Source: an uncultured Gammaproteobacteria bacterium
Lineage (GTDB): Bacteria; Patescibacteriota; Microgenomatia; PFEM01; DATLAM01
Direction of reading: 5' to 3'
Length of the DNA: 64,000 nucleotides
NCBI GenBank assembly: GCA_964566925.1
Contig: CAZMIZ010000005.1
Coordinates: forward strand, 184-64,183
Shown one piece after another: positions 655-14,100 of the stretch. The notes under the pieces are model-generated. The model did no database searches and was not told the origin of the DNA. It worked only from the letters and a program-made list of their open reading frames with translations. The position numbers and the translations under genes are program-made. The number at the start of each line of letters is the position of its first letter. The first letter of the stretch is position 1.

Positions 655-1005
655 TTGAAAATGGGATCGGTTTTGGGTAAGATAAAAAGGATGCTTGAAT
701 TAACTAATAAAAGCTTTCAAGAGGAGGTTTTGAAGGCTAAAGAGCCGGTTTTGGTTGATTTTTGGGCGCCTTGGTGCGGACCCTGTAGAATGGCTGGACC
801 GGTGATTGATGAGTTGGCCCAGGAATATGAGGGAAAAGTGAAGGTAGGCAAGCTCAACGTTGATGAGAATCCGAAGACGGCCGAGAAATATGGGGTAATG
901 AGTATCCCCACGGTAATAATCTTCAAAGAAGGTAAAGAAGCTAAAAGGCAGATAGGCTTTCCCGGCAAAGCGGGTTATGAGCAATTGATTAAGGGGGTGC
1001 TTTAG
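655..1005 (+). CDS. trxA: Thioredoxin
   Basis: 116 aa. Carries the WCGPC active-site motif and is adjacent to trxB. Confidence 0.85.
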   Translation: MKMGSVLGKIKRMLELTNKSFQEEVLKAKEPVLVDFWAPWCGPCRMAGPVIDELAQEYEGKVKVGKLNVDENPKTAEKYGVMSIPTVIIFKEGKEAKRQIGFPGKAGYEQLIKGVL

Positions 1006-1178
1006 TTCGGGGAAACATATTTTTCAAAGACGCGAGACGAGATTTAGAGGTAAATTGGAACCTTCTAGTCTCTCGCTAAGTGATCGTCAGCAGTGTTTCT
1101 TGAAAGTGAATGAATAACGCCATCTGACTGACGATCAAATTCTTTTCAAAACAGTTTCCCTTCACTCTAAAAGAAGAT

Positions 1179-2141
1179 ATGGAGGATCAGGCTTACGACC
1201 TCATCATTATTGGCTCTGGTCCAGCAGGCTTTACTGCCTCGATTTATGCGAGCCGATACAAGCTTTCCAACCTGGTTTTAGGTGAGAAGGTAGGGGGAAC
1301 GATTGGCTTAGCGAGTAAAGTCGAGAATTACCCTGGCTTTCATTCTATTTCAGGTTTGGATTTAATGGCTAAGATTGAGGAGCATGTTAAAGGTCTGGGT
1401 GCGGAAGTGGTCTATGATCCAGTCACCGGGGTAAAAAAAGAAGGAGAGAGTTTTGAGGTTTTAGTTCAATCAGGCAAAAATCTTCTGGCAAAAGCGATTA
1501 TCATTACCACCGGAACGGAGAGAAGAAGTCTTGGGGTTCCCGGCGAAAAAGAGTATCTTGGTCGAGGTGTAACTTATTGTACAACTTGCGACGCCCCGTT
1601 TTTTAGAGATAAAGTGGTGGCTTTAATTGGCGGGGCAGATAGCGCTGTTTCCGGTGCGATCCACACCGCCGAATTTGCCAAAAAAGTCTACATTATTTAT
1701 CGTAAAGACAAGTTCCGGGCTGAACCAATCTGGGTCGAGCAGGCTTTAAAAAATCCCAAGATTGAACCAATTTATAAGACTAATATTACGGAGATCCTGG
1801 GAGCTTCAGGGAAAGTTAGCGGAGTGGAGCTTAATAATCCCTATCAAGGCAAGAAAAGTCTACCTTTAGACGGAGTTTTTATCGAAATTGGGGGCGTGCC
1901 GGGAGTGGGGATTGCTTCCTCAATGGGGATTGAGCTGACTGAAGCCGGTTTTATTAAAGTGAACGAGCAGATGGAAACTAACTTAGCTGGGGTTTTCTCG
2001 GCTGGAGATTGTAATGATCGCTTGCCGAACTTTCAACAAATGATCACTGCTTGTGCTGAAGGGGCTTTAGCGGCGGCTTCTGCCTATAAATTTTTGAAAA
2101 AAGAGCAAGCGCCCCAGATATTAGGAGTTGGTTCTAAATAA
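1179..2141 (+). CDS. trxB: Thioredoxin-disulfide reductase
   Basis: 320 aa. Has an FAD-binding GSGPAG motif, a redox-active CTTCDAPFF (CxxC) motif and an NADPH-binding GGADSA motif. Confidence 0.85.
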   Translation: MEDQAYDLIIIGSGPAGFTASIYASRYKLSNLVLGEKVGGTIGLASKVENYPGFHSISGLDLMAKIEEHVKGLGAEVVYDPVTGVKKEGESFEVLVQSGKNLLAKAIIITTGTERRSLGVPGEKEYLGRGVTYCTTCDAPFFRDKVVALIGGADSAVSGAIHTAEFAKKVYIIYRKDKFRAEPIWVEQALKNPKIEPIYKTNITEILGASGKVSGVELNNPYQGKKSLPLDGVFIEIGGVPGVGIASSMGIELTEAGFIKVNEQMETNLAGVFSAGDCNDRLPNFQQMITACAEGALAAASAYKFLKKEQAPQILGVGSK

Positions 2142-2153
2142 AGATAAGATTTT

Positions 2154-2678
2154 ATGGCTTCCCGAAAAATCACTGACGATCAGCAGGAGATGTTTGTCAT
2201 CGTTGACAAAAACGATAAGGTTATTGGTCAGGCAACTAGGGGAGAATGTCATCGGAATAAAAAATTAATTCATCGCGGAGTAGTTATTTTAGTTTTTAAT
2301 GATCAAGGCGAGCTCTATTTGCAAAAAAGAAGTGCTACTAAAGATCTCTATCCTAGCTTATGGTCGCTTTCGGTTGGAGGCCATGTTGCCAGCGGGGAAA
2401 CCTATGATCAGGCGGCGAAAAAGGAAATGCGAGAAGAATTGGGAATTAACGTTCCTTTTAAGAAGATCGGCAAATTTTTCCATCAGAATGAACGCGAAAC
2501 AGAAATAAATATGGCTTACAAAGCAACCTATAAAGGCCCTTTTAAATTAAGTCCGGAAGAAATTGAGAAGGGAAGATTCTTTAACCCCGAGGCTTTAGCT
2601 AAGAAAGTCAGCTCAGGGGAAATTAAGTTGACACCCCGTGCAAGGCACGGTTTAAAATTTAGCGGAGTTTTAAAATGA
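2154..2678 (+). CDS. Nudix hydrolase
   Basis: 174 aa. Nudix box GGHVASGETYDQAAKKEMREELGI (Gx5Ex7REUxEExGU). Confidence 0.7.
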   Translation: MASRKITDDQQEMFVIVDKNDKVIGQATRGECHRNKKLIHRGVVILVFNDQGELYLQKRSATKDLYPSLWSLSVGGHVASGETYDQAAKKEMREELGINVPFKKIGKFFHQNERETEINMAYKATYKGPFKLSPEEIEKGRFFNPEALAKKVSSGEIKLTPRARHGLKFSGVLK

Positions 2679-3895
2679 ATCCTTTTCAAAACGCCATCCA
2701 ACAATTGGAAAGAGCCGCTGCCTACACCAAAGCGGGGCGGAGAGAGCTTGATAAATTAAAGTACCCAAATAGGCTTATTCGCAAGGAAATATCAATTAAA
2801 TTGGATAACGGAAAAACGGCTAAATTTAAGGCTTTTCGGATTCAATACAATAATGCTCGAGGTCCCTATAAAGGGGGAATCCGTTTTCATCCCCAGGTGA
2901 GTTTGGAGGAAGTCAAGGCTTTGGCTTTTTGGATGAGTATTAAGACCGCGGTCGTTGGTCTTCCTTTGGGAGGTGGTAAAGGTGGGGTGATTGTTGATCC
3001 CAAAGAACTTTCCCAAACGGAAATCGAGCGGCTTTCTCGAGTCTATGTCCGAGCGATTGCTCCTTACATTGGACCCAGGGTGGATGTGCCGGCCCCAGAC
3101 GTGAATACCAACGCTCAAATAATGGCCTGGATGATGGATGAATACGAAAAGATTGTTGGCAAGAAGGCATCAGCCACCTTTACTGGCAAGCCAATTAAAT
3201 TAGGGGGCAGTTTGGGTAGGGAAGCCGCCACTGGCCGCGGTGGACTTTATACTTTACAGGCTTTTCTTCAGGCTTCAAATCAAAACCTGCTTTCTATTGC
3301 CGTCCAAGGGTTTGGTAATGTCGGTTATTGGTTTGCTCAGTTAGCCCATGAGGTTGGTTTTAAAGTCGTGGCTGTTTCAGACAGTAAAGGCGGGATTCTA
3401 AGCCCGAGAGGGTTAAACCCTAAGAAGGTGATGGCCTACAAGAGAAAGACGGGGTCGGTGGTGGGTTTTCCGAGAACTAAAAAGATCACCAATAATCAAT
3501 TGCTAATTACTAAGACTGACATTCTGGCCCCCGCGGCTTTAGAAAACATTATTACCAAGGCGAATGCCGCCAAGATTAAGGCAAAAGTAATTATTGAGCT
3601 GGCTAACGGGCCGGTGACTCCAGGGGCGGATAAAATTTTGATTGAAAAAGGAATTATAGCCGTGCCTGATATTTTGGCTAATGCTGGCGGGGTGACCGTT
3701 TCCTATTTTGAATGGAAGCAGAATCTAACAGGGAAGAAATGGAGTGAAAGAGAGGTTAATCAAAGGCTTGAAAAGATCATGGTGAGGGCTTTTAATTCTA
3801 TTTGGAAAGCGAGTAAAAAATATCAGGTCGATTTACGGACGGCCGCCTATATCCTGGCGATTGAACGGATTGTCAAGGCAATGAAGAAAGATTGA
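2675..3895 (+). CDS. gdhA: Glutamate dehydrogenase (Glu/Leu/Phe/Val dehydrogenase family)
   Basis: 406 aa. Has the PLGGGKGG catalytic glycine-rich motif and a C-terminal Rossmann GFGNVG motif. Confidence 0.85.
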   Translation: MNPFQNAIQQLERAAAYTKAGRRELDKLKYPNRLIRKEISIKLDNGKTAKFKAFRIQYNNARGPYKGGIRFHPQVSLEEVKALAFWMSIKTAVVGLPLGGGKGGVIVDPKELSQTEIERLSRVYVRAIAPYIGPRVDVPAPDVNTNAQIMAWMMDEYEKIVGKKASATFTGKPIKLGGSLGREAATGRGGLYTLQAFLQASNQNLLSIAVQGFGNVGYWFAQLAHEVGFKVVAVSDSKGGILSPRGLNPKKVMAYKRKTGSVVGFPRTKKITNNQLLITKTDILAPAALENIITKANAAKIKAKVIIELANGPVTPGADKILIEKGIIAVPDILANAGGVTVSYFEWKQNLTGKKWSEREVNQRLEKIMVRAFNSIWKASKKYQVDLRTAAYILAIERIVKAMKKD

Positions 3896-3966
3896 CAGAG
3901 AACTATAGGGGATGATATAAGGAATTAACTGCCCGTTTCCAGGGCAGTTTTTAGAAGGAGATAATC

Positions 3967-4677
3967 ATGAGTCCGATTCCAGAAAGATTAGAAATAAAAG
4001 GGGATGATAGAGAGCGGTCTATAGGGAGTTATGTAAAGGTAATGGAAGCTTTAGTAGCCGACAGGGGAAATATTATTCCGTTGGCTGGAGAAGAGATAGA
4101 ATTTCCAGAATTGCCTTCCGCGCAGATTAAAAAGGGATTTAGAATCCCTTTTGACCACCTTTTACATAATCTTTTGCCTTCTAATAGCAACAAATTAGAT
4201 GGCCTCAGAAAATATTATAGGCAATTTGGAATCATGATTAGGGTGGACTGGGAAAGCAGAGTAGCTTTAGTGAAGTCAATTGGGGTCGGGAGAGAGGTGG
4301 AAGTCTATTTAGAAGGAGGGAAATATGCTAGTCGATGTTCAGAGGATGGTAGAACGGAAGGGATTACTTTAACACCTCCACACAGGGAAGTGGTTGGAGC
4401 GCTATTAATTTTAAGTCCCGAAGATTTTGTTTATGCCAGCGAGCATGGAATTTTAATTGGAGAAGAAGTCGGTGAAAAAAATCAAGTTGACCTGGTAGTT
4501 CTACCAGGGAGGCAGTTTAGAGAACTTAATTTGGAATTGCCAGTAAACGAAGAAAGTCTTAGGGAAGATCGAATGTATCCGATTAGCGACATGCGTTTTA
4601 ACCCGCTCGCATCAGTGTTTCGGATGGTAGAGAAGGAAATTGGTCCGCTGACCATCTTTTTTGAACCGACAAAATAG
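3967..4677 (+). CDS. Hypothetical protein
   Basis: 236-aa ORF on the coding strand of the operon. No recognisable motifs. Confidence 0.4.
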   Translation: MSPIPERLEIKGDDRERSIGSYVKVMEALVADRGNIIPLAGEEIEFPELPSAQIKKGFRIPFDHLLHNLLPSNSNKLDGLRKYYRQFGIMIRVDWESRVALVKSIGVGREVEVYLEGGKYASRCSEDGRTEGITLTPPHREVVGALLILSPEDFVYASEHGILIGEEVGEKNQVDLVVLPGRQFRELNLELPVNEESLREDRMYPISDMRFNPLASVFRMVEKEIGPLTIFFEPTK

Positions 4678-4716
4678 GGGGCTTGTCAGGATAGGGTTTT
4701 TAGACTAGAATAGGGC

Positions 4717-4905
4717 ATGATGAAGATCAAGATTGATAAAAACAAATGTATTGGTTGTGGGACGTGTAGGGCCTTAGCGCCCAAAAGCTTTAAATTAGGC
4801 AGTGACGGTAAGGCTCAACTGATTGAGCCGCCGGGTGATGATCAGGCAAAGATTAAGGAGGCCATTGACAGCTGCCCGGTCAATGCGATAAAATCGGCAG
4901 ACTGA
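4717..4905 (+). CDS. Small ferredoxin (single [3Fe-4S]/[4Fe-4S] cluster type)
   Basis: 62 aa. Contains CIGCGTC...CP (CxxCxxC...CP) typical of mini-ferredoxins. Confidence 0.6.
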   Translation: MMKIKIDKNKCIGCGTCRALAPKSFKLGSDGKAQLIEPPGDDQAKIKEAIDSCPVNAIKSAD

Positions 4906-4906
4906 A

Positions 4907-5491
4907 ATGGCTGAAGAAGAAAAAAGCAAAAGTTATACCACTCCCATCTTAATTATCCTGGTGGCCGCTGCTTTCTTTCTACTAGGGAATTATTGGGCCC
5001 AATCAAAAAAAACAGGCGAAAAGAGCGCTGAAGAGGTAGTCCAGGCGAATCCCACGCCAGAAGAAGAAGTTTTGGGCGGAGTAACTTGGAAAACCACCGG
5101 TCTAGGTAATTTTGTGACCTTGGAAGAGGAAGTCTGTTTAGAAGGGGGGAAGCCGGTTGTTTATTATTTTGGCAGAAGTTCTTGTCCTCATTGTTCTTGG
5201 GAACACCCCATTTTTGAAAAGGTGGTTAAAAAGTTTGCCAATTTAATTTCGGTTCATGACAGAATGGACCAAGAGGGAGACGAAGACGTTTTCAGCCAAT
5301 ACTCTCAGCTTAACAACAACGGGATTCCCTTTATGGTTTTAGGGTGTCAATATGCCCAGGTGGGAAGTGGCGAAAGCATTGGCGAGGAAGAAGAAGAGAC
5401 GGTTTTGACGACCTTGATTTGCCAACTGACTGGAGGAGAGCCTGAGAGTGTCTGTGCTAAAGTTCAGGATTTAACCGAAGAGGAAGAATAA
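4907..5491 (+). CDS. Membrane-anchored thioredoxin-fold thiol:disulfide oxidoreductase (CPHC active site)
   Basis: 194 aa. Has an N-terminal TM helix, a thioredoxin-fold motif VVYYFGRSSCPHCSWEHP, and an acidic C-terminal tail. Confidence 0.45.
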   Translation: MAEEEKSKSYTTPILIILVAAAFFLLGNYWAQSKKTGEKSAEEVVQANPTPEEEVLGGVTWKTTGLGNFVTLEEEVCLEGGKPVVYYFGRSSCPHCSWEHPIFEKVVKKFANLISVHDRMDQEGDEDVFSQYSQLNNNGIPFMVLGCQYAQVGSGESIGEEEEETVLTTLICQLTGGEPESVCAKVQDLTEEEE

Positions 5492-5547
5492 CTTCTTTTA
5501 TCTTTCCTTGTTGACATCTTTGGTTCAATGGTATAATTATTTTCAGG

Positions 5548-6195
5548 ATGAATATTTTCCAATTTTTAGTGGATCAGGCCATCTTAAGCGGGGTTTCTGA
5601 GGAGATAATTGTCCTCTTGCTCCTTTTACCCTTAGTGGCCTCGATCGTAGGCGCGGCCCGGCATTTGATTGGTTTTCGGGGTTTTGGTATTTTTATTCCC
5701 ACCGCCATTGCTGTTGCCTTTGTTAAAACCGGGATCGGCACCGGGATTTTGATTTTCTTGACAATTTTACTTTTAGCCAGCATTGGTCGCCAAGGGTTAA
5801 GAAAATTAAGACTTCATTATTTACCCCGAATGGCCCTGATGCTTTGGTTGGTCACCTTAGGGATTCTAGGCATGGTTTTGGCTTCCCCTTATCTAGGCTT
5901 GACTCAACTGACAGCCATTTCCATTTTTCCGATTGTAATTTTGATTCTTTTAGCCGAAGAGTTTATCGCTGTTCAGATAGGGAAATCTCTTCGGGAGGCA
6001 GCCCGGATGACCACCGAAACGATCATCATTGCCTTAATCGGTTACTTTATTTTTACCCTTAAAATCCTCCATAATTTAGCCCTGACTTACCCTCATTGGG
6101 TGGTTTTGACCCCCCTCTTTCTAAATCTTTTTATCGGCCGATTTACAGGTTTACGTCTCCTTGAATACAGACGTTTCAGAAGACTTTTAAAGTAA
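5548..6195 (+). CDS. 7-TM membrane protein (7TM family associated with ATP-grasp/aspartyl-protease systems)
   Basis: 215 aa. Seven hydrophobic helices can be read directly from the sequence. Sits immediately upstream of the ATP-grasp genes. Confidence 0.5.
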   Translation: MNIFQFLVDQAILSGVSEEIIVLLLLLPLVASIVGAARHLIGFRGFGIFIPTAIAVAFVKTGIGTGILIFLTILLLASIGRQGLRKLRLHYLPRMALMLWLVTLGILGMVLASPYLGLTQLTAISIFPIVILILLAEEFIAVQIGKSLREAARMTTETIIIALIGYFIFTLKILHNLALTYPHWVVLTPLFLNLFIGRFTGLRLLEYRRFRRLLK

Positions 6196-6222
6196 AATTT
6201 AGCGAATTTCCCTGAAGCGAAG

Positions 6223-7518
6223 ATGTTTGCTCAAGCTAGTCAAATTTTAGGTTTAAACGCTCGTAGCCTAAGTTACCTTAAGCCTTTAAATACCAAAAGA
6301 GGCCGCCGGATTGCCGATTCTAAGCTTTTAACTAAAAAATATTTAAGAAAGGCTGGTTTGCCCACGCCGAAGCTTCTTAAAGTGTTTAAAAGCCCTCAAG
6401 AGGTGGCAGAGTTTAATTGGTTAACTTTGCCCGACAACTTCGTTTTAAAGCCAGCTTCAGGCTATGCTGGCGGGGGAATTGTCATTGTCAAGAAGAGAGC
6501 TAAATGGGCCGGCGAATGGCGCTTGATGGACGATTCAATCACCAATGTTGCCGATTTTCGTTTGCGATCTTTGGATATCTTGGCTGGCCAGTATAGCCTT
6601 CATAATTTACCAGATTGGGCGATGGTCGAGGAGCGAATTAAAATTACCAAAGTTTTGCGCAAATATGCCTACCAGGGGACGCCTGACGTTCGAGTTTTGG
6701 TTTACAATAAAGTTCCGGTCATGGCCATGCTTCGCTTACCTGCTGCCGAATCAAAAGGAAAATCAAATCTTCACCAAGGAGCAATCGGGGTGGGGATTGA
6801 TATCGCTACCGGTATTACTACCTATGGGATCATCCGGGGCCAGTTTATAAAATATGTCCCAGGGACGAAGAGGAAAATCAACGGCATAAAGCTTCCCAGT
6901 TGGAATACTATTTTGACGCTGGCGGTTAAAGCTCAAGAGGCCGTGCCCTCTTTAGGTTTTGTGGGAGTAGATATTGTTTTTGATAAACAGCACGGTCCGG
7001 TAATCCTGGAACTGAATGCTCGTCCAGGCGTCGAAATTCAAAATGCCAATTTGTCTCCTTTAAAAAGGAGACTGGGGCGAGTTGAAGGTTTAGAGGTTAA
7101 AGACGCTGAACATGGAGTGAAAGTGGCGAAAACCCTTTTTGCCGCTCGGTTTGCTGACCGGGTAATGGTTGAGGAAGGGATAAAGATTCTAGAAGCGGTT
7201 GAGGAGGTTAAAATTCGGTCAGCTGACAAGAAAAAAATGGCCGTTCTCGCCCGAGTTGATAGTGGTGCCTTTCGTAGCTCAATTGATCGGGAATTAGCCA
7301 GAGAATTAGGCTTGTTAAAGAAAAAAAATATTCTCTGGAAAGATCGGTTTACTTACCGTTCAACTGTTGGGAGACAAACCCGGCCCGTGATTGGCCTAAC
7401 CTTTTGGCTGGCGGGAAGGAGAATTAGAACTTCGGCCTCGGTGGCTGATCGGTCAAAAATGAAAGTACCGATGATCATTGGCAGAAATGATCTAGGGGGC
7501 TTTTTAGTTAGGCCTTAA
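6223..7518 (+). CDS. RimK-like ATP-grasp amidoligase fused to a C-terminal retropepsin-like (DSGA) aspartyl-protease domain
   Basis: 431 aa. ATP-grasp motifs VLKPASGYAGGGIVIV, DVRVLVYN and VDIVFD..PVILELNARPG are present. The C-terminal LARVDSGAFRSSIDRELARELGL has the D-S-G-A retropepsin signature of RimK-associated 'zinc protease'-type domains. Confidence 0.6.
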   Translation: MFAQASQILGLNARSLSYLKPLNTKRGRRIADSKLLTKKYLRKAGLPTPKLLKVFKSPQEVAEFNWLTLPDNFVLKPASGYAGGGIVIVKKRAKWAGEWRLMDDSITNVADFRLRSLDILAGQYSLHNLPDWAMVEERIKITKVLRKYAYQGTPDVRVLVYNKVPVMAMLRLPAAESKGKSNLHQGAIGVGIDIATGITTYGIIRGQFIKYVPGTKRKINGIKLPSWNTILTLAVKAQEAVPSLGFVGVDIVFDKQHGPVILELNARPGVEIQNANLSPLKRRLGRVEGLEVKDAEHGVKVAKTLFAARFADRVMVEEGIKILEAVEEVKIRSADKKKMAVLARVDSGAFRSSIDRELARELGLLKKKNILWKDRFTYRSTVGRQTRPVIGLTFWLAGRRIRTSASVADRSKMKVPMIIGRNDLGGFLVRP

Positions 7519-7538
7519 GATTTACCTTACGAAACACA

Positions 7539-8972
7539 ATGAAAGACTTAATTTCCCCTTTGAAAAGGAATAAAGCCCCGATTATTGGTATTGGTGTAAC
7601 CGCTTTTAATCGAATTGGGCCAGCCTTTTTTTTGAACAACTTTGAAATTATTTGCTACAAAAACGGATCTGATTTACCTTCTCTTGAGAAGTTTTGCAAA
7701 ATAATTTCCATTCAGCGTGATCTCCGCGGAGAGAACCTTGAAAGGCTTAATAGCCTGGCCCTTTTAAAACACCGAGGCGTTTTCCATTATCTTAAGAGTA
7801 AAAAGGGGATTAAGATTTTTGTTTATCGTTCAACCGAGCGGATTGATAAGATCTGCGAAGAGAACGGCTGGCAGCTTTTGGCTAATAAAGCAAGAATTAG
7901 GGATGTTTATGAGGATAAAAAGCGGTTTCGCCAGATTGGAAAGAAGGCGAAAATCGGCCTAATTGAAGGAGAAACGCTCAGGATTGATAATCTAGATAGA
8001 GACCAACTCAGGCAGTTTCAGAAGAAGTACGGCCCAAACCTAGTTTTTCAATTAACTGACATTTCCCGGGGCGGTGGCCTAGGCACATTTTTCATCAATC
8101 AGGCTCAAGATTTTGAAAATTTTTGCCAGTTCGTTCGAAAAGAAAGAAGAGAGAGAGAACTAAAAAATGTCAATGTGACTAAACGGATTCAGGGAATTCC
8201 TGCCAGCATTACCGGTTGTGTTACTCACTCTGGCGTAATTTGTAGCCCGATCCAGACCCAGATTATAGATCAGCCAGAAGTGATGGGCCCCACTAAAAGC
8301 AAGGGTAGATTTTGTGGTCATGATTGGCAGTTTAGGCATTATCAAGGCAGACTTCAAAATCAAGCAGAGAGAATCGCTAGGAGGCTAGGAGAATATATGG
8401 GTGGCCAAGGTTATAAGGGTATTTTTGGTATCGATTTGATTATTGATGAGAGGGAGGGTCGAGTTCATCCAGTTGAGTGTAATCCCCGCTACACAGGCGC
8501 TTTTCCAGTCTACACAATGCTTCAGTTACAAGCAGAGGAAATCCCTTTTGAAGCTTTTCATCTTTTGGAGTTTTTAGGAATTCCCTACGAGGTTGATGTG
8601 GAGGCGATTAACCGTTCCTATCAAAGCAAGAAGAGAGGCTCTCACCTAGTCCTTTATAATCGTGATCGGAAAAATTGGGTTAAGGCCTGGGGAAATTTAC
8701 AAGCTGGAGTTTATCGATTAGAGAATGGAAAGCTAAAATTTTTACGGGAAGGGTTTTCAGTTTTTGATATTAAGAATCAATCAGAGTTTGTTTTGACTGA
8801 CGGGGTGCCTAAGAAAGGGGATTTGGTCAAGCCAGGACTTCGCTGCGGAAAGCTGATTTTTAACAAAAGCATCCTAGGGTCAAAGGGCAGATTAACTCCA
8901 GAAGTAAAGGAGATTATTAGGCTGGTTTACAAAAGTTTGGATTTAAGGAAGACGAAATTTAAGCAGATTTAG
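7539..8972 (+). CDS. Second ATP-grasp family ligase
   Basis: 477 aa. GIFGIDLIIDEREGRVHPVECNPRYTGAFP is an ATP-grasp catalytic-loop / Mg-binding motif. Confidence 0.5.
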   Translation: MKDLISPLKRNKAPIIGIGVTAFNRIGPAFFLNNFEIICYKNGSDLPSLEKFCKIISIQRDLRGENLERLNSLALLKHRGVFHYLKSKKGIKIFVYRSTERIDKICEENGWQLLANKARIRDVYEDKKRFRQIGKKAKIGLIEGETLRIDNLDRDQLRQFQKKYGPNLVFQLTDISRGGGLGTFFINQAQDFENFCQFVRKERRERELKNVNVTKRIQGIPASITGCVTHSGVICSPIQTQIIDQPEVMGPTKSKGRFCGHDWQFRHYQGRLQNQAERIARRLGEYMGGQGYKGIFGIDLIIDEREGRVHPVECNPRYTGAFPVYTMLQLQAEEIPFEAFHLLEFLGIPYEVDVEAINRSYQSKKRGSHLVLYNRDRKNWVKAWGNLQAGVYRLENGKLKFLREGFSVFDIKNQSEFVLTDGVPKKGDLVKPGLRCGKLIFNKSILGSKGRLTPEVKEIIRLVYKSLDLRKTKFKQI

Positions 8973-9645
8973 CCTTGGCTAGGTCAACGTAAATTAGATA
9001 GCCGACAACCATCCAAAGGGGAGAAAGAAAGAAGTTGACCAGGGAGCCGATAAAACTAAGCTTAACCAAAATTGATGCAAGGAGAATAGAAATGAGAAAG
9101 ATTAAGGCTAGCCTGCCTAGGACTCCCCAAAAATGACCTTCCACTAGCTGCTTACTTCTTTTTAAGGCTTGAACCGCCCCTGCTTTTTCAATGACGACGA
9201 CATAAGGGATAAAGAAGAACCAAACAGCCAGAATTATTCCAGGAATAATTAAGAGAATAAATCCAAGGATGATCAAAAAAGTTGAGAAGAGAGTAGCTAA
9301 GAAATAGGCTGGCCATTTCTTCCAGGCCAGCTGAAGTATCTTCTTAATAGAGAGAGGCTTTCCTTTTCCAGCCTGGTAAACCGCTTGATAGACTAGGGTT
9401 TGGGACCAAGAGCCAATGATTATCGAGAGAATGATGGAAACTAGGAAGAAAATGATCGCCAAGAAAATCATAAGGGCTTTTTGTTTGGCGAAGATGGCCC
9501 CTGCAGCAGCTGCGGCTGGGGGAATGAAGCCTAGAATAAGAGGAATAATTAAGGCAACGCTTATCAGAAGAGCTTTAGTTAGAAAAACCCAATTGTCTGC
9601 GTAAATCTGGAGGCTGTCTTTGATTAAATTATTGACTGATCGCAT
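8959..9645 (-). CDS. Polytopic membrane protein, hypothetical
   Basis: 228 aa and highly hydrophobic. A copy of the ~45-nt repeat element lies ~50 nt upstream of its start. Confidence 0.4.
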   Translation of the reverse strand: MRSVNNLIKDSLQIYADNWVFLTKALLISVALIIPLILGFIPPAAAAAGAIFAKQKALMIFLAIIFFLVSIILSIIIGSWSQTLVYQAVYQAGKGKPLSIKKILQLAWKKWPAYFLATLFSTFLIILGFILLIIPGIILAVWFFFIPYVVVIEKAGAVQALKRSKQLVEGHFWGVLGRLALIFLISILLASILVKLSFIGSLVNFFLSPLWMVVGYLIYVDLAKAKSA

Positions 9646-9695
9646 AGTTTAAGTATGACAGATAAATCTGACGGCGTCAACTTGGCCCGCCTGAA

Positions 9696-9738
9696 CTTAC
9701 TTTTCGCCTTTTGGGTTCTATTCGAACACGGCTCAAAG
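9696..9738 (-). repeat. Copy (a) of the ~45-nt dispersed element; a near-exact inverted copy of the rRNA-spacer copy at 44234-44276
   Basis: cttacttttcgccttttgggttctattcgaacacggctcaaag(agcg) compared with the reverse complement of 44231-44276 (ccgctctttgagccgttttcgaatagaacccaaaggcgaaaagtaagg). Confidence 0.5.
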
Positions 9739-11119
9739 AGCGTTTTCCGGCGGGTTTGCGCCCTGTATCGAACTTTGTTCTGGTTCAGGGCTTGACAAAA
9801 AATGTCTTTTAGGCTAAAAAAAGACTACTTCTGCCCATTTTCCCTGCCTAAAATTGAGTCATTTTTCGATTCCTGCCTGGAGAGGAGTAAGAAATGCTTT
9901 TATGGGGAGCTTTTACCTTAGGTTTTTGTGTTGGCTCCATTCTTTTTTTTCATATCTTTGGCCAGGAGTATGAATAGTGGAAATTTTATAGGATTGTAAG
10001 ATCTTTAAATAATTAAGACCTGTAGTATTTAACTTATTAAATTCTTCAAGCTTAAGACAAGGCTCTCGTTTTTCTCAACTTTCACTAGTTTTAGAGAATG
10101 TTTGTCTTAGAATATTGTTCCGAGAATATCGGATTAAAGATAAAGATTTAAAAAAATCAGCCAAAATTATAGAAAACCAAAAACTAGATATTTTAATTTA
10201 TCTTAAATCATTTTTTGATATAGATTGAATAGGTGATTTTGGTCAAATTTTATAAAACTTAAATTTTATTTTTATAGGATAACAACTTTGAGTTAATTTT
10301 AGTCGACGAAATTTTCTTAATTTTTCGAAAGAGGAAAAAATAGACTATCAATTTAGGTCAAAAAGAGAATTAATATCTCAAAAAATAAAATAATAGAGCA
10401 ATAAGATTTTTAACCAAAAAAATGGACAAATTTAGTCAGTTTATTTTTTTTATTAAAATTAACAATTTTCTAGAATTTAATCCCCTTAATTGTTACTAGA
10501 AGATCTTTTATTTTCTAAATACTAAAATAAGTTGCCGGATTAAAAAAATTGATCTAAAAAAGTCCATTTTCGCCAAAGAGAGAATAGACCAGGAAATTTT
10601 ATTAATGGGGGCCTATTTTTGAAGAGTTTAATTGTTCATAATTCATTTTTTTATGGAAATATTTAGTTTTTCGTAGGTCAATTAAAGTGGCAATTTTTTT
10701 CAAAAAACAGCCCAAATCGTTTTCAATAAGCTTTTTTTGCTGAAATTTTTAGTATCCTCAGTCGTTAGTTTTTTGATCTTCTGACAGCCAATTTTTAGCT
10801 CTTTTTCGGACTAAACAGTTGAAATTATAGGACTTTTAAATAAAAGAAAAAAGAGATTAAAAAAAGAAAATAGGAAAGGGGTTTTTATTTTTGAAGAGTT
10901 TTCGATTTGGTTGATATCTAGACATTTTCATTCCCTCCGAAGTGCCCTAAAAGCCCGCTAAAAAGCCCCAAAATCGATTAAATTTTGTTTTGGGAGCACT
11001 AAAAAACTGATCTAAATTTGGCTGAAATTGCCTCTTGACAGAGAGTACCCGAATGATGGTAACATAAAAATAAACCTATAAGTATCTAATTATAAACAAG
11101 CCTTGGAGGGGAGAGGTTT

Positions 11120-14100
11120 GTGGCTAAAAACCTGCCCAGAGCGAAAAAACTTTCAATTCTCCTTTCTTTTATTTGGAAAAACCCTTCTTTTGGTTTAGAC
11201 CGGATTTCAATTGAACTTTCAATTGAACTTTCTGATAAAAAGGGCAGAAAAGTCTTTTCAAGAAGCGGAATTCAGAAAGCTTTAACCAGGCTCGGGTTAA
11301 ATACGACTAAAAAGAGGCGAGCTTGGGCAAGAGGGATAACTACCGCCGAAGCCGCAAAGAAGTTTGCTGAGCTGGTGGCAACCAAGTTTTCAGGGAGATT
11401 GACGCCTGAAAAGCGGTTAGAGATGATCAGGCTGGTTGAACAAAAAGAAATGACCGCTAGCCGGGCTGCTCAGGCCTGTGGAGTTTCCCGAAAAAGTTTC
11501 TATAAATGGCAAAAGCGCTATTTGGCTTCAGCTCCAGGTAGGGAATATCAAGCAGTTTGTGATCAAAAACCGGCTATTGAAAAACGCTGGAATCAATTAA
11601 CGAATAAGCAGGAAGAGGCCATTCTTAAAATCGTTCGGGAGCATCCAGATTATTCCACCCATAAAGTTGCGCAAATATTGGCAGATATCGGCAATCACGG
11701 AGTTCAGAACGCTTTTGAGAGGTTAAATCTTAATACCTACGAAAAACGCTTAGCCTATGCTCAAGCCCCTCAACCAGTTATCACTCCTGTTACAAGAGTG
11801 CTGGGTTGGTTTAAGTCACTCCTGGATAGAATTCCAGCTATTTCTCCTCTTCCTCCTCCAATCAAACAAAAAATTGCCACTTTAACTCATCCTTTTGCTT
11901 TTAGCCTCTTTTTTTCAATTGTTTTCTCCACTTTTTTTCTTTTTTGGTTTGATCTCATCATTCGGGCGCCCACTCTGAGTGCTAAACTTGGCTTTATTTT
12001 TGCTTCAGCTTCATTATTGGTTGGCGGGTTTTTCTTTATCTACTCAATGAAATACTACCTGACTCTAGCGATTGTTCTTTCTTTTTCTCGCCAAACCCAA
12101 GAAGAAAGGGGAGGCTACACCTTTAGCCTGAAAGGGAGAATGAATGGCCCCACTTCGCCAGGGGCTACGCGGGGTAACGGCAATAGTGGATGGTTGTTAA
12201 GAATCTTTGGTTTAGGAAACGGGAATGGCCCTGAAGAAAAGGGAAAGATAGTTCAGGCTGGTGGTCTTCAGCCTTCTTTAGATCACATTAAACTGAAGCG
12301 GTATCCTTTTGTTTCAATTCATCTGCCCTTCTTTAATGAAAAGAAGGTGGCGGAGAGGATTCTTAAAGCCTGTACGGCCATGGATTATCCCAGAGAGAGT
12401 TACGAAATTATTGTTTGTGATGATTCCAATGATGAGACTATTAATATTGTGCAAAGGTACGTAAAGAAGCACAACCAAACTCACCCCAAAGGGCCGAAGA
12501 TTAAGGTTCTTCATCGGCCCACCAGAGAGGGTTTTAAAGGTGGCGCCCTTTCTTATGCTTTGAAGAGCATGGATAAAAAGACGGAGTTCTGTGTGGTCTT
12601 TGATGCTGACTTTATCCCTTACCCAGACACTCTGGAACTGTTTGTCAAGTATTTCAAGGTGAACAATGGTCAGTCTGAGAACTACACCAGGGGCAAGATT
12701 GCCGTGGTGGGAGGTTATCAATGGCATGTTTTAAACAAATCAGAGAACTGGATCACCCGAGGAGTGAGAACGGAGTATGCTGGGAGCTACGTCATTGAAA
12801 GGCCTGGCAGAGAGATCTTGGGATTGCTAAAACAGATCTCTGGCTCAGTCTATATGATTAGAAGTGATGTCATCAAAAAGGTAGGCTGGGGTACGAGTAT
12901 TACTGAAGACTTCCAGTTAACCCTCAAGCTCTATGAGCAGGGCTACAAGGTGATCTACACCCCCTATGTTCAAGCCCCAGCCGAATGTGTTTCTACCCTG
13001 AAAAGGCTTATTAGACAACGGATGAGATGGGCCGAGGGACACAGCAACAATATTAGGAGGATGTTTTTACGACTCCTGGTTTCTCCTAAGTTGACTCTCA
13101 CAGAGAAACTAGAGCTTTTTTATCTTTCCCCTTACTATCTCCAGGCCGCCTTCTTCTTAGTCGGTACTTCCTGCTGGCTTTTAGCTGAGGCTGTTTTTAG
13201 GGTTAAGTTGCCTTTTTGGACCTCTCTTTGGGGCTGGTCTTTGGTTTTAACTAACTTTTTCTGTTTGCCCTTGGTGAATGCCGTGGGTTTGTTCCTAGAA
13301 GAAAGTGAAGAAAGAGACTATCTTGGTTTACTCTCTTTTATTTTTCTCTCCTACGTTCTCGTTCCCTTCCAGGCCTATGCTTCGGTAAAAGGCTTTCTGG
13401 AAAAAGAAGAAGGTCCTTGGTTTCGGACACCCAAGACAGGGAGGATTACCGACATCTTTACCCGGGGAAGATTCTACCGCTGGATTGCCGGAATTCTTCC
13501 AGGGAGAGGAGCTACCCCTGCCTATGCTGAGGCGACAACAGGGAAACAGCCCCCCAACTCTTATCTGGCTTTAGCGACAGCCAACAGTCAGTTTAGCTCT
13601 TTTGAAATCACGCCCAAGAGAAACCGCTTATGGGGTAAATTGGCGCTTTTGTTGGTGGCGGGAATCAGTTCAAGCCTTTCCTATTTTGGTAATCGGATTC
13701 CTCAGGGTGTGATTGCCAACCTGCCTATTCAAGCCAGAGTCGAGGTGGCTGGTTCTCAGCCTAGTTTCATAATAGATCAAGCCATTTTTTCTCAAATCCT
13801 TAGTCTGTTTAAGCCAAAGCAGGCCTTAGCAGTCACCTCTGGACTCAAGGATGCCCTTTTGGCTGGACAGCCAGTTTCCCTGGAGAACTTCAAAGGCTTG
13901 GCGCTTTTCTTAACTCTTTTAAGCTTGAGCCTTTTGGTTTATTTGCTAAAAAGAAAGAGAAGATTTGTTAAAAAACTTTTACGACCGGCTTTTGTGACCA
14001 CTCTTGTCTTAATATGGCTTTTGACCAGCTTTCCCCCTGTTTGGTTTACCCCTCGCTTTCCACCGAAAATTAAAAAAGCTCTGGCCTACGACTATGACGA

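What the first reader, a model, noticed from the sequence alone, without database searches (positions are those of the whole stretch)
5548..8972. 7TM + RimK-like ATP-grasp/retropepsin fusion + second ATP-grasp: a compact peptide-ligase/protease system
A 215-aa protein with seven clear TM helices is followed by an ATP-grasp ligase whose C-terminus carries a retropepsin-type D-S-G-A domain (LARVDSGAFRSSID), and then by a second ATP-grasp (..ECNPRYTGAFP). Comparative-genomics work has predicted three-component 7TM / ATP-grasp / aspartyl-peptidase systems that make or trim peptide tags on surface molecules. Here the ligase and peptidase are fused into one polypeptide and a second ligase is added, which is a distinctive variant. 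Its substrate is unknown and could be surface proteins or teichoic-acid-like polymers.
Basis: partly seen in the sequence, partly recalled or inferred. Interest (0 to 1): 0.7.

Follow-up and report, generated by a model that had tools for sequence, protein, structure and literature searches.

The report
Membrane-coupled peptide ligase–protease operon
Three adjacent genes in a candidate-phyla (Microgenomates) bacterium encode a seven-helix membrane protein, a peptide ligase fused to a retrovirus-type protease, and a second ligase; this is a compact, widely conserved relative of the Pseudomonas Rlo stress-tolerance operon, and its product is still unknown.

Summary
ORF 5548-6195 is a 7TM_transglut protein with no transglutaminase domain. 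ORF 6223-7518 is an RloC-type ATP-grasp ligase (PF14397) joined by a disordered linker to a compact retropepsin domain with an invariant D-T/S-G-A motif. ORF 7539-8972 is a biotin-carboxylase-fold ATP-grasp (AG2).

About 250 species-level genomes, nearly all Microgenomates, encode the fusion. The 7TM gene lies directly upstream in 77 of 78 informative loci. A further ATP-grasp ligase follows within three genes in 68 of 75. That extra ligase is usually RimK-type; AG2-type is the rarer alternative, and it was found next to the pair in every case examined.

Elsewhere the three modules occur fused in nearly every combination, which argues that they work together. Those fusions place the ligase inside the cell. 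The protease is therefore cytoplasmic here, whereas RloA is secreted.

Most likely function: membrane-associated, template-independent synthesis and trimming of an acidic (polyglutamate-like) peptide. Closest known systems are RloABC and the RimB-RimK hybrid. I rate it a new variant of a known kind.

The parts
5548..6195 (+). 7TM membrane protein (215 aa). It is the RloB-type seven-helix module with neither the N-terminal inactive-transglutaminase domain nor the signal/low-complexity extension that most relatives carry.
   Evidence: PF14402 at E=2.3e-27, covering profile positions 54-247 of 248. The RloB model matches only its 7TM part, positions 314-507 of 508. Seven hydrophobic peaks are present, and the basic C-terminal tail EYRRFRRLLK fits a cytoplasmic C-terminus. 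The gene lies directly upstream of the fusion gene in 77 of 78 loci.
6223..7518 (+). Fusion protein (431 aa): an RloC-type ATP-grasp ligase, a linker and a retropepsin domain. It has no signal peptide and no hydrophobic segment.
   Evidence: The AlphaFold model has mean pLDDT 84, with two confident domains joined by a disordered linker at residues 309-319.
6262..7086 (+). ATP-grasp ligase domain (residues 14-288).
   Evidence: PF14397 at 206.8 bits and TIGR02291 at E=1.3e-74. Invariant residues are K76, the G80/G83/G85 loop, E136, D250, E263 and N265. The closest solved folds are RimK 5zct, ArgX/LysX, cyanophycin synthetase and Ddl.
7183..7515 (+). Compact retropepsin-like aspartic peptidase domain (residues 321-431).
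   Evidence: The domain profile hits 9g59, 9g58 and 2pma at E=5e-8 to 3e-5. The model is all-beta here. The domain is about 27 residues shorter than RloA between the DTGA and RPVI motifs.
7258..7269 (+). Catalytic motif D346-S-G-A349.
   Evidence: D, G and A are invariant in 81 of 81 homologues; position 347 is T in 78 and S in 3.
7474..7494 (+). Second retropepsin hallmark, I-I-G420-R421-N-D423-L.
   Evidence: G is conserved in 81 of 81, R in 76 of 81 and D in 70 of 81. It aligns with the LLIG/LLGR motif of the RloA-type structures.
7539..8972 (+). AG2: a second ATP-grasp enzyme (477 aa) with three-domain biotin-carboxylase/PurK-type architecture. It is an accessory ligase dedicated to this module.

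Best explanation
This is a membrane-associated, ribosome-independent module that makes and trims a peptide. It is a streamlined Microgenomates version of the 7TM / ATP-grasp / retropepsin (Rlo-type) system.

Inferred mechanism:
- The cytoplasmic ATP-grasp domain of the fusion uses ATP to add amino acids, most likely glutamate, one by one. The acceptor is a growing acidic peptide or the carboxyl end of a target molecule.
- The C-terminal retropepsin domain pairs with that of a second fusion molecule to form the two-aspartate active site. It cuts the acidic chain on the cytoplasmic side, which sets chain length or releases the product, as RimB does for RimK.
- The 7TM protein has its N-terminus outside and its C-terminus inside. 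It docks the ligase at the membrane and either passes the product outward or presents a membrane-bound acceptor.
- AG2 occupies the slot held by one to three RimK-type ligases in most relatives. It adds a different residue or linkage, or makes the primer.

Shown here: domain identities, intact catalytic residues, conserved gene order, recurrent domain fusions, and the topology deduced from those fusions.

Inferred only: the amino acid used, the acceptor, export of the product, and the role of AG2.
For: Both active sites look intact. The ligase keeps K76, the glycine-rich loop, D250, E263 and N265 as invariant residues. The protease keeps D346, G348, G420 and R421.

The residues that RloA needs for polyglutamate cleavage are K46, R114 and R137 (PMC11957051, section 8). 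In chain 9g58 they have the same spacing from the catalytic Asp. They align with window R344 (always K or R), R387 (invariant, motif RPVI) and R410 (invariant, motif DRS).

The 7TM gene is directly upstream in 77 of 78 loci, with a median gap of 6 nt, and 68 of 75 loci have another ATP-grasp gene within three genes downstream.

AG2 homologues sit next to the pair in 4 of 4 sampled lineages.

Domain fusions found elsewhere: signal peptide-retropepsin-7TM, two retropepsins-7TM, signal anchor-retropepsin-7TM-ATPgrasp_ST in one chain (P0370), and ATPgrasp_ST-retropepsin-MATCAP carboxypeptidase.

Experimental precedent: RimK makes poly-alpha-glutamate, RimB cleaves it and stimulates RimK, and a RimB-RimK hybrid is an active protease (PMC11957791). 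Loss of the RloA proteases is rescued by deleting rloB or rloC, as expected if the ligase and 7TM protein make something the protease must remove (PMC11957051).

Glutamate-related neighbours give weak support: glutamate dehydrogenase in the window, L002 and L083, and a Peptidase_C26/GATase gene after the ligases in L001 and L086.
Against: No product or substrate is known for any member of this system, including RloABC.

Glutamate specificity rests on homology and on three conserved basic residues, not on an assay.

The protease lies on the opposite side of the membrane from RloA and from the retropepsin-7TM fusions, so its role may differ from theirs.

The compact domain has a shorter flap region than RloA, and the window sequence alone falls below the Pfam threshold for PF05618.

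Dimerisation of the protease domain, contact between the 7TM protein and the ligase, and transport by the 7TM protein were not tested.

AG2's nearest folds include carboxylases as well as amide ligases, so its chemistry is open.

Neighbours in some relatives (undecaprenyl-diphosphate synthase, glycosyltransferases, a YdjC fusion) point to a glycan or lipid-linked acceptor rather than a free peptide.
Confidence: 0.55

Rival explanations
1. The module modifies an envelope glycan or a lipid-linked precursor. The ligases attach amino acids or short peptides to a sugar acid or a lipid-linked cell-wall or surface-polymer precursor held by the 7TM protein, and the protease edits those peptide stems.
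For: Pfam calls PF14397 'sugar-transfer associated'. Undecaprenyl-diphosphate synthase lies upstream in 14 loci. Three glycosyltransferase genes adjoin the module in L084 and L085. An ATPgrasp_ST-retropepsin-YdjC (sugar deacetylase family) fusion exists. The rlo mutant phenotypes concern cell shape, wall-targeting antibiotics and osmotic lysis (PMC11957051), and disrupting the Shewanella homologue of the 7TM protein alters vesicle production (PMC12096838).
Against: These neighbours occur in a minority of loci and are common genes in small genomes. The closest solved folds are ligases that act on peptide or protein carboxyl ends (RimK, LysX/ArgX). The basic residues used by RloA to bind polyglutamate are conserved. 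A cytoplasmic endopeptidase fits editing of a peptide chain better than editing of a glycan.
Confidence: 0.2
2. The module is a RimK/RimB-like cytoplasmic protein-tailing system. The ligases add glutamates to the C-terminus of a soluble protein such as ribosomal protein S6, the fused protease removes them, and the 7TM protein is only an anchor or sensor that regulates activity.
For: The ligase and protease are both cytoplasmic, as RimK and RimB are. True RimK-type paralogues follow the fusion gene in 67 of 75 loci. The ribosomal genes rplJ and rplL are frequent convergent neighbours. RimB-RimK hybrids exist (PMC11957791).
Against: The 7TM partner is obligatory (77 of 78 loci) and is even fused to the ligase or the protease in other lineages, with the protease outside the cell. 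That makes no sense for a purely ribosomal target. The ligase is RloC-type, not RimK-type. In Pseudomonas, rimB and the rloA genes do not interact genetically (PMC11957051). No conserved protein with a glutamate-rich C-terminus lies in the locus.
Confidence: 0.15
3. AG2 is an unrelated metabolic enzyme (a carboxylase of the biotin-carboxylase/PurK type) that merely happens to lie next to a two-gene 7TM + fusion module.
For: The top Foldseek hits are biotin carboxylases, and the best NCBIfam model is named 'biotin carboxylase'. AG2 is absent from most loci that carry the fusion.
Against: The NCBIfam score is 179 bits against a cut-off of 684. AG2 homologues of only 40-49% identity occupy the same position after the pair in four separate lineages, and also in L001 and L009. 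No biotin-carrier or carboxyltransferase gene is nearby. The highest structural identities (16%) are to the amide-forming ligases BesA and 8ynd. AG2 occupies exactly the slot held by RimK-type ligases in relatives, including the closest one, L003.
Confidence: 0.05

Closest known systems
RloABC operon of Pseudomonas aeruginosa (Lormand et al. 2025, PMC11957051)
   Same: It has the same three modules: a PF14402 7TM protein, a PF14397/TIGR02291-type cytoplasmic ATP-grasp, and a PF05618-type retropepsin with DTGA and the basic residues used for polyglutamate recognition. The genes are co-directional and adjacent.
   Different: The protease here is fused to the C-terminus of the ligase, has no signal peptide and is therefore cytoplasmic, whereas RloA is secreted. 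The membrane protein lacks the inactive transglutaminase domain. The protease domain is about 27 residues shorter. One or more extra ATP-grasp ligases belong to the operon. The host is a Patescibacteria lineage, not a Gammaproteobacterium.
RimK-RimB and the RimBK hybrid (Desulfotalea DP2392; PMC11957791)
   Same: A cytoplasmic ATP-grasp peptide ligase is physically coupled to a retropepsin that cleaves the ligase's polyglutamate product. A single-chain fusion of the two is known and is proteolytically active.
   Different: In RimBK the protease is N-terminal and the ligase is RimK-type (PF08443). Here the order is reversed and the ligase is RloC-type, so this is an independent fusion event. 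RimK/RimB have no membrane partner, and their known target is ribosomal protein S6.
The three-component 7TM / ATP-grasp / aspartyl-peptidase systems predicted by comparative genomics (Iyer et al. 2009, Mol Biosyst 5:1636; cited in PMC11957051 and PMC12096838; I could not read the text itself)
   Same: The gene triad is the same, and so is the idea of peptide tagging or trimming at the membrane.
   Different: I could not check whether that paper lists the ligase-protease fusion or the multi-ligase operons of candidate-phyla bacteria.
Biotin-carboxylase/PurK/L-amino-acid-ligase branch of ATP-grasp enzymes (for AG2)
   Different: Identity is only 11-16%. AG2 scores far below the PRK06524 cut-off, has no carboxylase partner genes, and its gene context is a peptide-ligase operon.

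Membership tests
RloABC system | ATP-grasp of the RloC / alpha-L-glutamate-ligase-like type (PF14397, TIGR02291) | tested here: met
   PF14397 scores 206.8 bits against a cut-off of 31.4. TIGR02291 gives E=1.3e-74 but 251 bits, below its equivalog cut-off of 314. The protein is therefore in the family but is not an equivalog.
RloABC system | Seven-helix membrane module of RloB (PF14402) | tested here: met
   96.5 bits against a cut-off of 25, with seven hydrophobic peaks.
RloABC system | Inactive transglutaminase domain N-terminal to the 7TM module | tested here: not met
   The protein is only 215 aa. The RloB model matches positions 314-507 of 508 only, at 67 bits against a cut-off of 900. 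Longer relatives add a signal-like helix and a low-complexity stretch, not a transglutaminase domain.
RloABC system | Separate, secreted retropepsin (RloA) with an N-terminal signal peptide | tested here: not met
   The domain forms residues 321-431 of the ligase polypeptide. The polypeptide has no hydrophobic segment.
RloABC system | Basic residues lining the protease channel that are needed for polyglutamate cleavage (RloA K46, R114, R137) | tested here: met
   The aligned positions are R344 (K or R in 81 of 81), R387 and R410 (both invariant). The residue mapping relies on identical spacing in chain 9g58.
RloABC system | Role in hypo-osmotic tolerance; protease loss rescued by loss of the ligase or the 7TM protein | not testable with these tools
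   This needs genetics. The host is uncultured.
RimBK hybrid / RimK-RimB | Ligase of the RimK family (PF08443, TIGR00768) | tested here: not met
   PF08443 scores 34.5 bits over profile positions 133-172 only. TIGR00768 scores 56.9 bits against a cut-off of 143.4.
RimBK hybrid / RimK-RimB | Protease domain N-terminal to the ligase | tested here: not met
   The order here is ligase then protease. RimBK has RimB at residues 1-163 (PMC11957791).
Retropepsin-like peptidases (PF05618 type, clan AA) | Catalytic D-T/S-G-A and the G-R-D/N motif on a beta-rich fold of about 100-140 residues | tested here: met
   Both motifs are invariant or nearly so. The model is all-beta in this region. The domain profile hits 9g59 at E=5e-8, and also ApRick, DDI1 and a retroviral protease.
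Retropepsin-like peptidases (PF05618 type, clan AA) | Score above Pfam's gathering threshold | tested here: not met
   The window sequence scores 22.7 bits against 27. Many close homologues do carry the precomputed PF05618 hit.
Retropepsin-like peptidases (PF05618 type, clan AA) | Homodimer forming one active site from two aspartates | not testable with these tools
   No multimer prediction was available. Tandem-duplicated versions of the domain do exist (P0243 and P0252).
Biotin carboxylase (PRK06524) - for AG2 | Score above the model's cut-off, and carboxylase partner genes nearby | tested here: not met
   179 bits against a cut-off of 684. No biotin-carrier or carboxyltransferase gene appears in the window locus or in L083-L086.

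The most novel reading that the evidence does not exclude
The operon is an assembly line built from ATP-grasp enzymes rather than ribosomes or NRPS. Two to four different ligases docked on a seven-helix membrane protein build a defined hetero-peptide polymer, not just polyglutamate. The fused retropepsin acts as the chain-length ruler or release factor, and the 7TM protein threads the product to the cell surface. There it forms part of the unusual envelope or attachment apparatus of these ultra-small episymbiotic bacteria.
Probability: 0.2. Interest if true: 0.75.

Novelty: new variant of a known kind. Interest (0 to 1): 0.5.

Why it matters
The Rlo-type 7TM/ATP-grasp/retropepsin system affects osmotic tolerance, biofilm formation and antibiotic sensitivity in Pseudomonas, yet its product and substrate are unknown.

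The Microgenomates version is a minimal form of it. It has no transglutaminase domain, and the ligase and protease share one soluble polypeptide. It is retained in about 250 species with tiny genomes, which argues that it is important to them.

The fusions found here fix the topology: ligase inside, N-terminus of the 7TM protein outside. They also show that the same protease clade works on either side of the membrane. This narrows the possible models for all such systems. The fused enzyme is also a convenient single protein for biochemical work on what the ligase makes and what the protease cuts.

The variable set of extra ligases hints at products more complex than polyglutamate.

Tried and rejected
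(1) Glutamate tail as substrate mark. The thioredoxin-like protein just upstream (4907-5491) ends in EEEE and has an internal EEEEE run. It is the only such ORF in the window. I considered it as a RimK-style substrate. Its closest homologues (L001, L008) lack the tail, and the domain is predicted to lie outside the cell, so I rejected it.

(2) A 7TM-ligase-protease mega-protein in L081. It is an artefact of a masked run of N joining two genes.

(3) Promoter and terminator scan of 3800-11200. The counts are at chance level and uninformative.

(4) Anti-phage defence. There are no PADLOC hits for any of the three proteins.

(5) Sequence search of the ligase domain against solved structures. Only one marginal hit appeared (2qk4, PurD, E=9e-4), so no structure of this ligase family is available.

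(7) A further RimK-type ligase, 7TM or retropepsin gene elsewhere in the 64-kb window. None was found.

(8) Literature. Iyer et al. 2009 is not held in the library. No paper mentions PF14397 or PF14402 by name or describes this system in candidate-phyla bacteria.

(9) Looking up the window's own protein in the contig index returned nothing.
Full report
**1. Observation.**
The gaps between them are 27 and 20 nt. A convergent membrane-protein gene (8959-9645, minus strand) overlaps the end of the third ORF.

- The first protein matches PF14402 7TM_transglut (E=2.3e-27), but only its helical part. It has seven hydrophobic peaks.
- The second matches PF14397 ATPgrasp_ST over residues 14-288 (E=5e-61) and TIGR02291 'alpha-L-glutamate ligase-like' (E=1.3e-74). 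Its match to RimK proper is weak and partial.
- The third matches only the generic PF02655 model and, far below cut-off, the 'biotin carboxylase' model PRK06524 (179 bits against 684).

**2. The retropepsin claim.**
Taken alone, the C-terminal ~110 residues score just under Pfam's threshold (PF05618 22.7 bits against 27) and give E=5e-7 on the RloA3 model. Three further tests settle the matter.

- In 81 homologous fusion proteins, D346, G348 and A349 are invariant (consensus D-T-G-A; this window has S). The second retropepsin hallmark, h-h-G420-R421-x-D423-L, is nearly invariant.
- A profile of the domain from 31 homologues hits the two RloA crystal structures 9g59 and 9g58 (E=5e-8 and 1e-6). 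It then hits Legionella 2pma, Rickettsia ApRick, DDI1 and a retroviral protease, across both halves of the fold.
- The AlphaFold model (mean pLDDT 84) shows an ATP-grasp body, a disordered linker at residues 309-319, and a confident all-beta domain at 321-431.

The domain is about 27 residues shorter than RloA between the DTGA and RPVI motifs, which is the flap region.

**3. How common the arrangement is, and what belongs to it.**
The fusion protein has more than 100 near-full-length homologues at 62-85% identity. The sources that name them call them Woesebacteria, Shapirobacteria or Microgenomates. A scan of one genome per species found 252 loci, and the 80 I kept are nearly all Microgenomates. 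Counts across those loci:

| Feature | Count |
|---|---|
| 7TM gene directly upstream, same strand (median gap 6 nt) | 77 of 78 |
| At least one further ATP-grasp gene within three genes downstream | 68 of 75 |
| RimK-type ligase (PF08443) downstream | 67 loci |
| AG2-type ligase downstream | 2 loci |

The single exception for the 7TM gene (L081) is a masked stretch of N, not a real difference. The RimK-type ligases come in one to three copies and are sometimes fused in tandem.

The closest relative (L003, 81% identity) has a RimK-type gene where the window has AG2, followed by the same convergent membrane-protein gene. The window lineage therefore swapped the accessory ligase. No RimK-type gene occurs elsewhere in the 64-kb window.

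AG2 is nevertheless not a chance neighbour. Its family was found only in Patescibacteria. Four homologues of 40-49% identity, from Beckwithbacteria, Chisholmbacteria and two unnamed lineages, all lie immediately after a 7TM + ATPgrasp_ST pair.

The core module is thus 7TM + ligase-protease fusion, with a variable set of accessory ligases. Less frequent additions are a methyltransferase, a conserved 202-aa protein of unknown family, and a Peptidase_C26/GATase gene.

**4. Fusions elsewhere, and topology.**
An exhaustive HMMER search with the 114-residue protease domain found 473 cluster representatives at E<=1e-3. Their architectures are:

- the ligase-protease fusion;
- stand-alone and tandem-duplicated domains;
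- signal peptide-retropepsin-7TM;
- two retropepsins-7TM;
- signal anchor-retropepsin-7TM-ATPgrasp_ST in a single 657-aa chain (P0370);
- ATPgrasp_ST-retropepsin followed by a MATCAP-type carboxypeptidase or a YdjC domain.

Because the three modules fuse in almost every combination, they very probably act as one machine. P0370 also fixes the topology: the N-terminus of the 7TM module is outside the cell and its C-terminus, carrying the ligase, is inside. This agrees with the basic C-terminal tail of the window's 7TM protein.

In those relatives the protease is outside, like secreted RloA. In the window it is tied to the ATP-dependent ligase, and the polypeptide has no hydrophobic segment. It must therefore act in the cytoplasm, like RimB.

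**5. Mechanism.**
What is known experimentally:

- RimK polymerises glutamate. RimB is a dimeric retropepsin that cuts polyglutamate and stimulates RimK. A natural RimB-RimK hybrid is an active protease (PMC11957791).
- RloA cleaves runs of eight or more glutamates and needs K46, R114 and R137 to do so. The lethal effects of losing all RloA proteases are suppressed by deleting rloB (7TM) or rloC (ligase) (PMC11957051).

In the window's family, the aligned positions R344 (always K or R), R387 and R410 (both invariant) are conserved. This mapping relies on identical spacing in chain 9g58. The ligase keeps its ATP- and Mg-binding residues. Its nearest solved folds are RimK, LysX/ArgX, cyanophycin synthetase and Ddl.

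I therefore propose the following, all of it inferred rather than shown:

- the membrane-docked ligase builds an acidic, glutamate-rich peptide;
- the fused protease, paired in a dimer, trims or releases it on the cytoplasmic face;
- the accessory ligases (here AG2) add other residues or linkages;
- the 7TM protein hands the product or its acceptor across the membrane.

**6. Rivals.**
- Glycan or lipid-linked acceptor. This is suggested by the Pfam family name, by undecaprenyl-diphosphate synthase and glycosyltransferase neighbours in some loci, by the YdjC fusion, and by the envelope phenotypes of rlo mutants.
- Purely cytoplasmic RimK-like protein tailing. This fits the location of the enzymes. 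It does not fit the obligatory 7TM partner or the relatives with an extracellular protease.
- AG2 as an unrelated carboxylase. This is unlikely given its conserved position.

**7. Comparison and novelty.**
The system works like RloABC and RimK/RimB, but it fails defining features of each.

- Against RloABC: there is no transglutaminase domain and no secreted stand-alone protease.
- Against RimBK: the ligase is not RimK-type and the domain order is reversed.

It is best described as a new variant of a known kind. It represents an independent ligase-protease fusion coupled to a bare 7TM protein and a variable set of ligases, and it is characteristic of Microgenomates. I found no description of it in the searchable literature. 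I could not read Iyer et al. 2009, which may mention such architectures.

Interest is moderate. The finding is a sound and useful lead on a system whose product is unknown, not a new class of system.

Noticed in passing
window 4907-5491 (+): This is a membrane-anchored thioredoxin-like protein with a CPHC motif and one N-terminal helix. It ends in ...DLTEEEE and has an internal EEEEE run. It is the only ORF in the window with either feature, and it sits directly upstream of a putative glutamate-ligase operon. Its homologues in L001 and L008 lack the tail.
   Followed up: yes
window 655-3895 (+); also L001, L002, L004-L006, L008, L054, L077, L083, L086: A block of thioredoxin, thioredoxin reductase, (Nudix), glutamate dehydrogenase and a small ferredoxin, followed by a DsbA/thioredoxin-like gene, precedes the 7TM gene in the window's nearest relatives. 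In L001 the thioredoxin reductase carries an intein with a LAGLIDADG endonuclease (701 aa).
   Followed up: partly
window 9650-11120: A stretch of about 1.4 kb has no ORF of 50 aa or more, and its GC content falls to 26-32% against about 43% around it. It has no Rfam match at E<=0.1.
   Followed up: partly
window 11120-16339 (+): A very large ORF (1739 aa) has several hydrophobic stretches and a long glycine-rich C-terminal part ending in a hydrophobic helix and a basic tail. It looks like a giant envelope protein. No domain search was run on it.
   Followed up: no
window 8959-9645 (-): A 228-aa multi-pass membrane protein has weak similarity to the YciC/UPF0259/GPDPase_memb families. It converges on AG2 and overlaps its last 14 nt. 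The same gene follows the operon in the closest relative, L003.
   Followed up: partly
L010-L082 (many loci): Three neighbours recur in more distant relatives. The ribosomal genes rplJ-rplL lie convergent downstream in about 25 loci. Undecaprenyl-diphosphate synthase lies upstream in 14 loci. Arrays of four small T4SS-pilin-like genes lie upstream in 9 loci (L066, L072-L076, L079, L080, L082).
   Followed up: partly
L003, L005, L006, L008, L010 and others (record titles): Many contigs carrying this typically Microgenomates locus are titled 'uncultured Gammaproteobacteria/Pseudomonadales', 'Bathyarchaeia archaeon' or 'Nevskiaceae'. These are probably mislabelled or contaminated bins.
   Followed up: no
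P0343, P0381 (about 800 aa): Some relatives extend the ligase-retropepsin fusion with a MATCAP-type (tubulin tyrosine carboxypeptidase family) metallopeptidase domain. One chain then holds a ligase, an endopeptidase and a carboxypeptidase.
   Followed up: partly
window 6545-6850 (+): A 101-aa ORF lies in another frame inside the fusion gene. It is almost certainly spurious.
   Followed up: no
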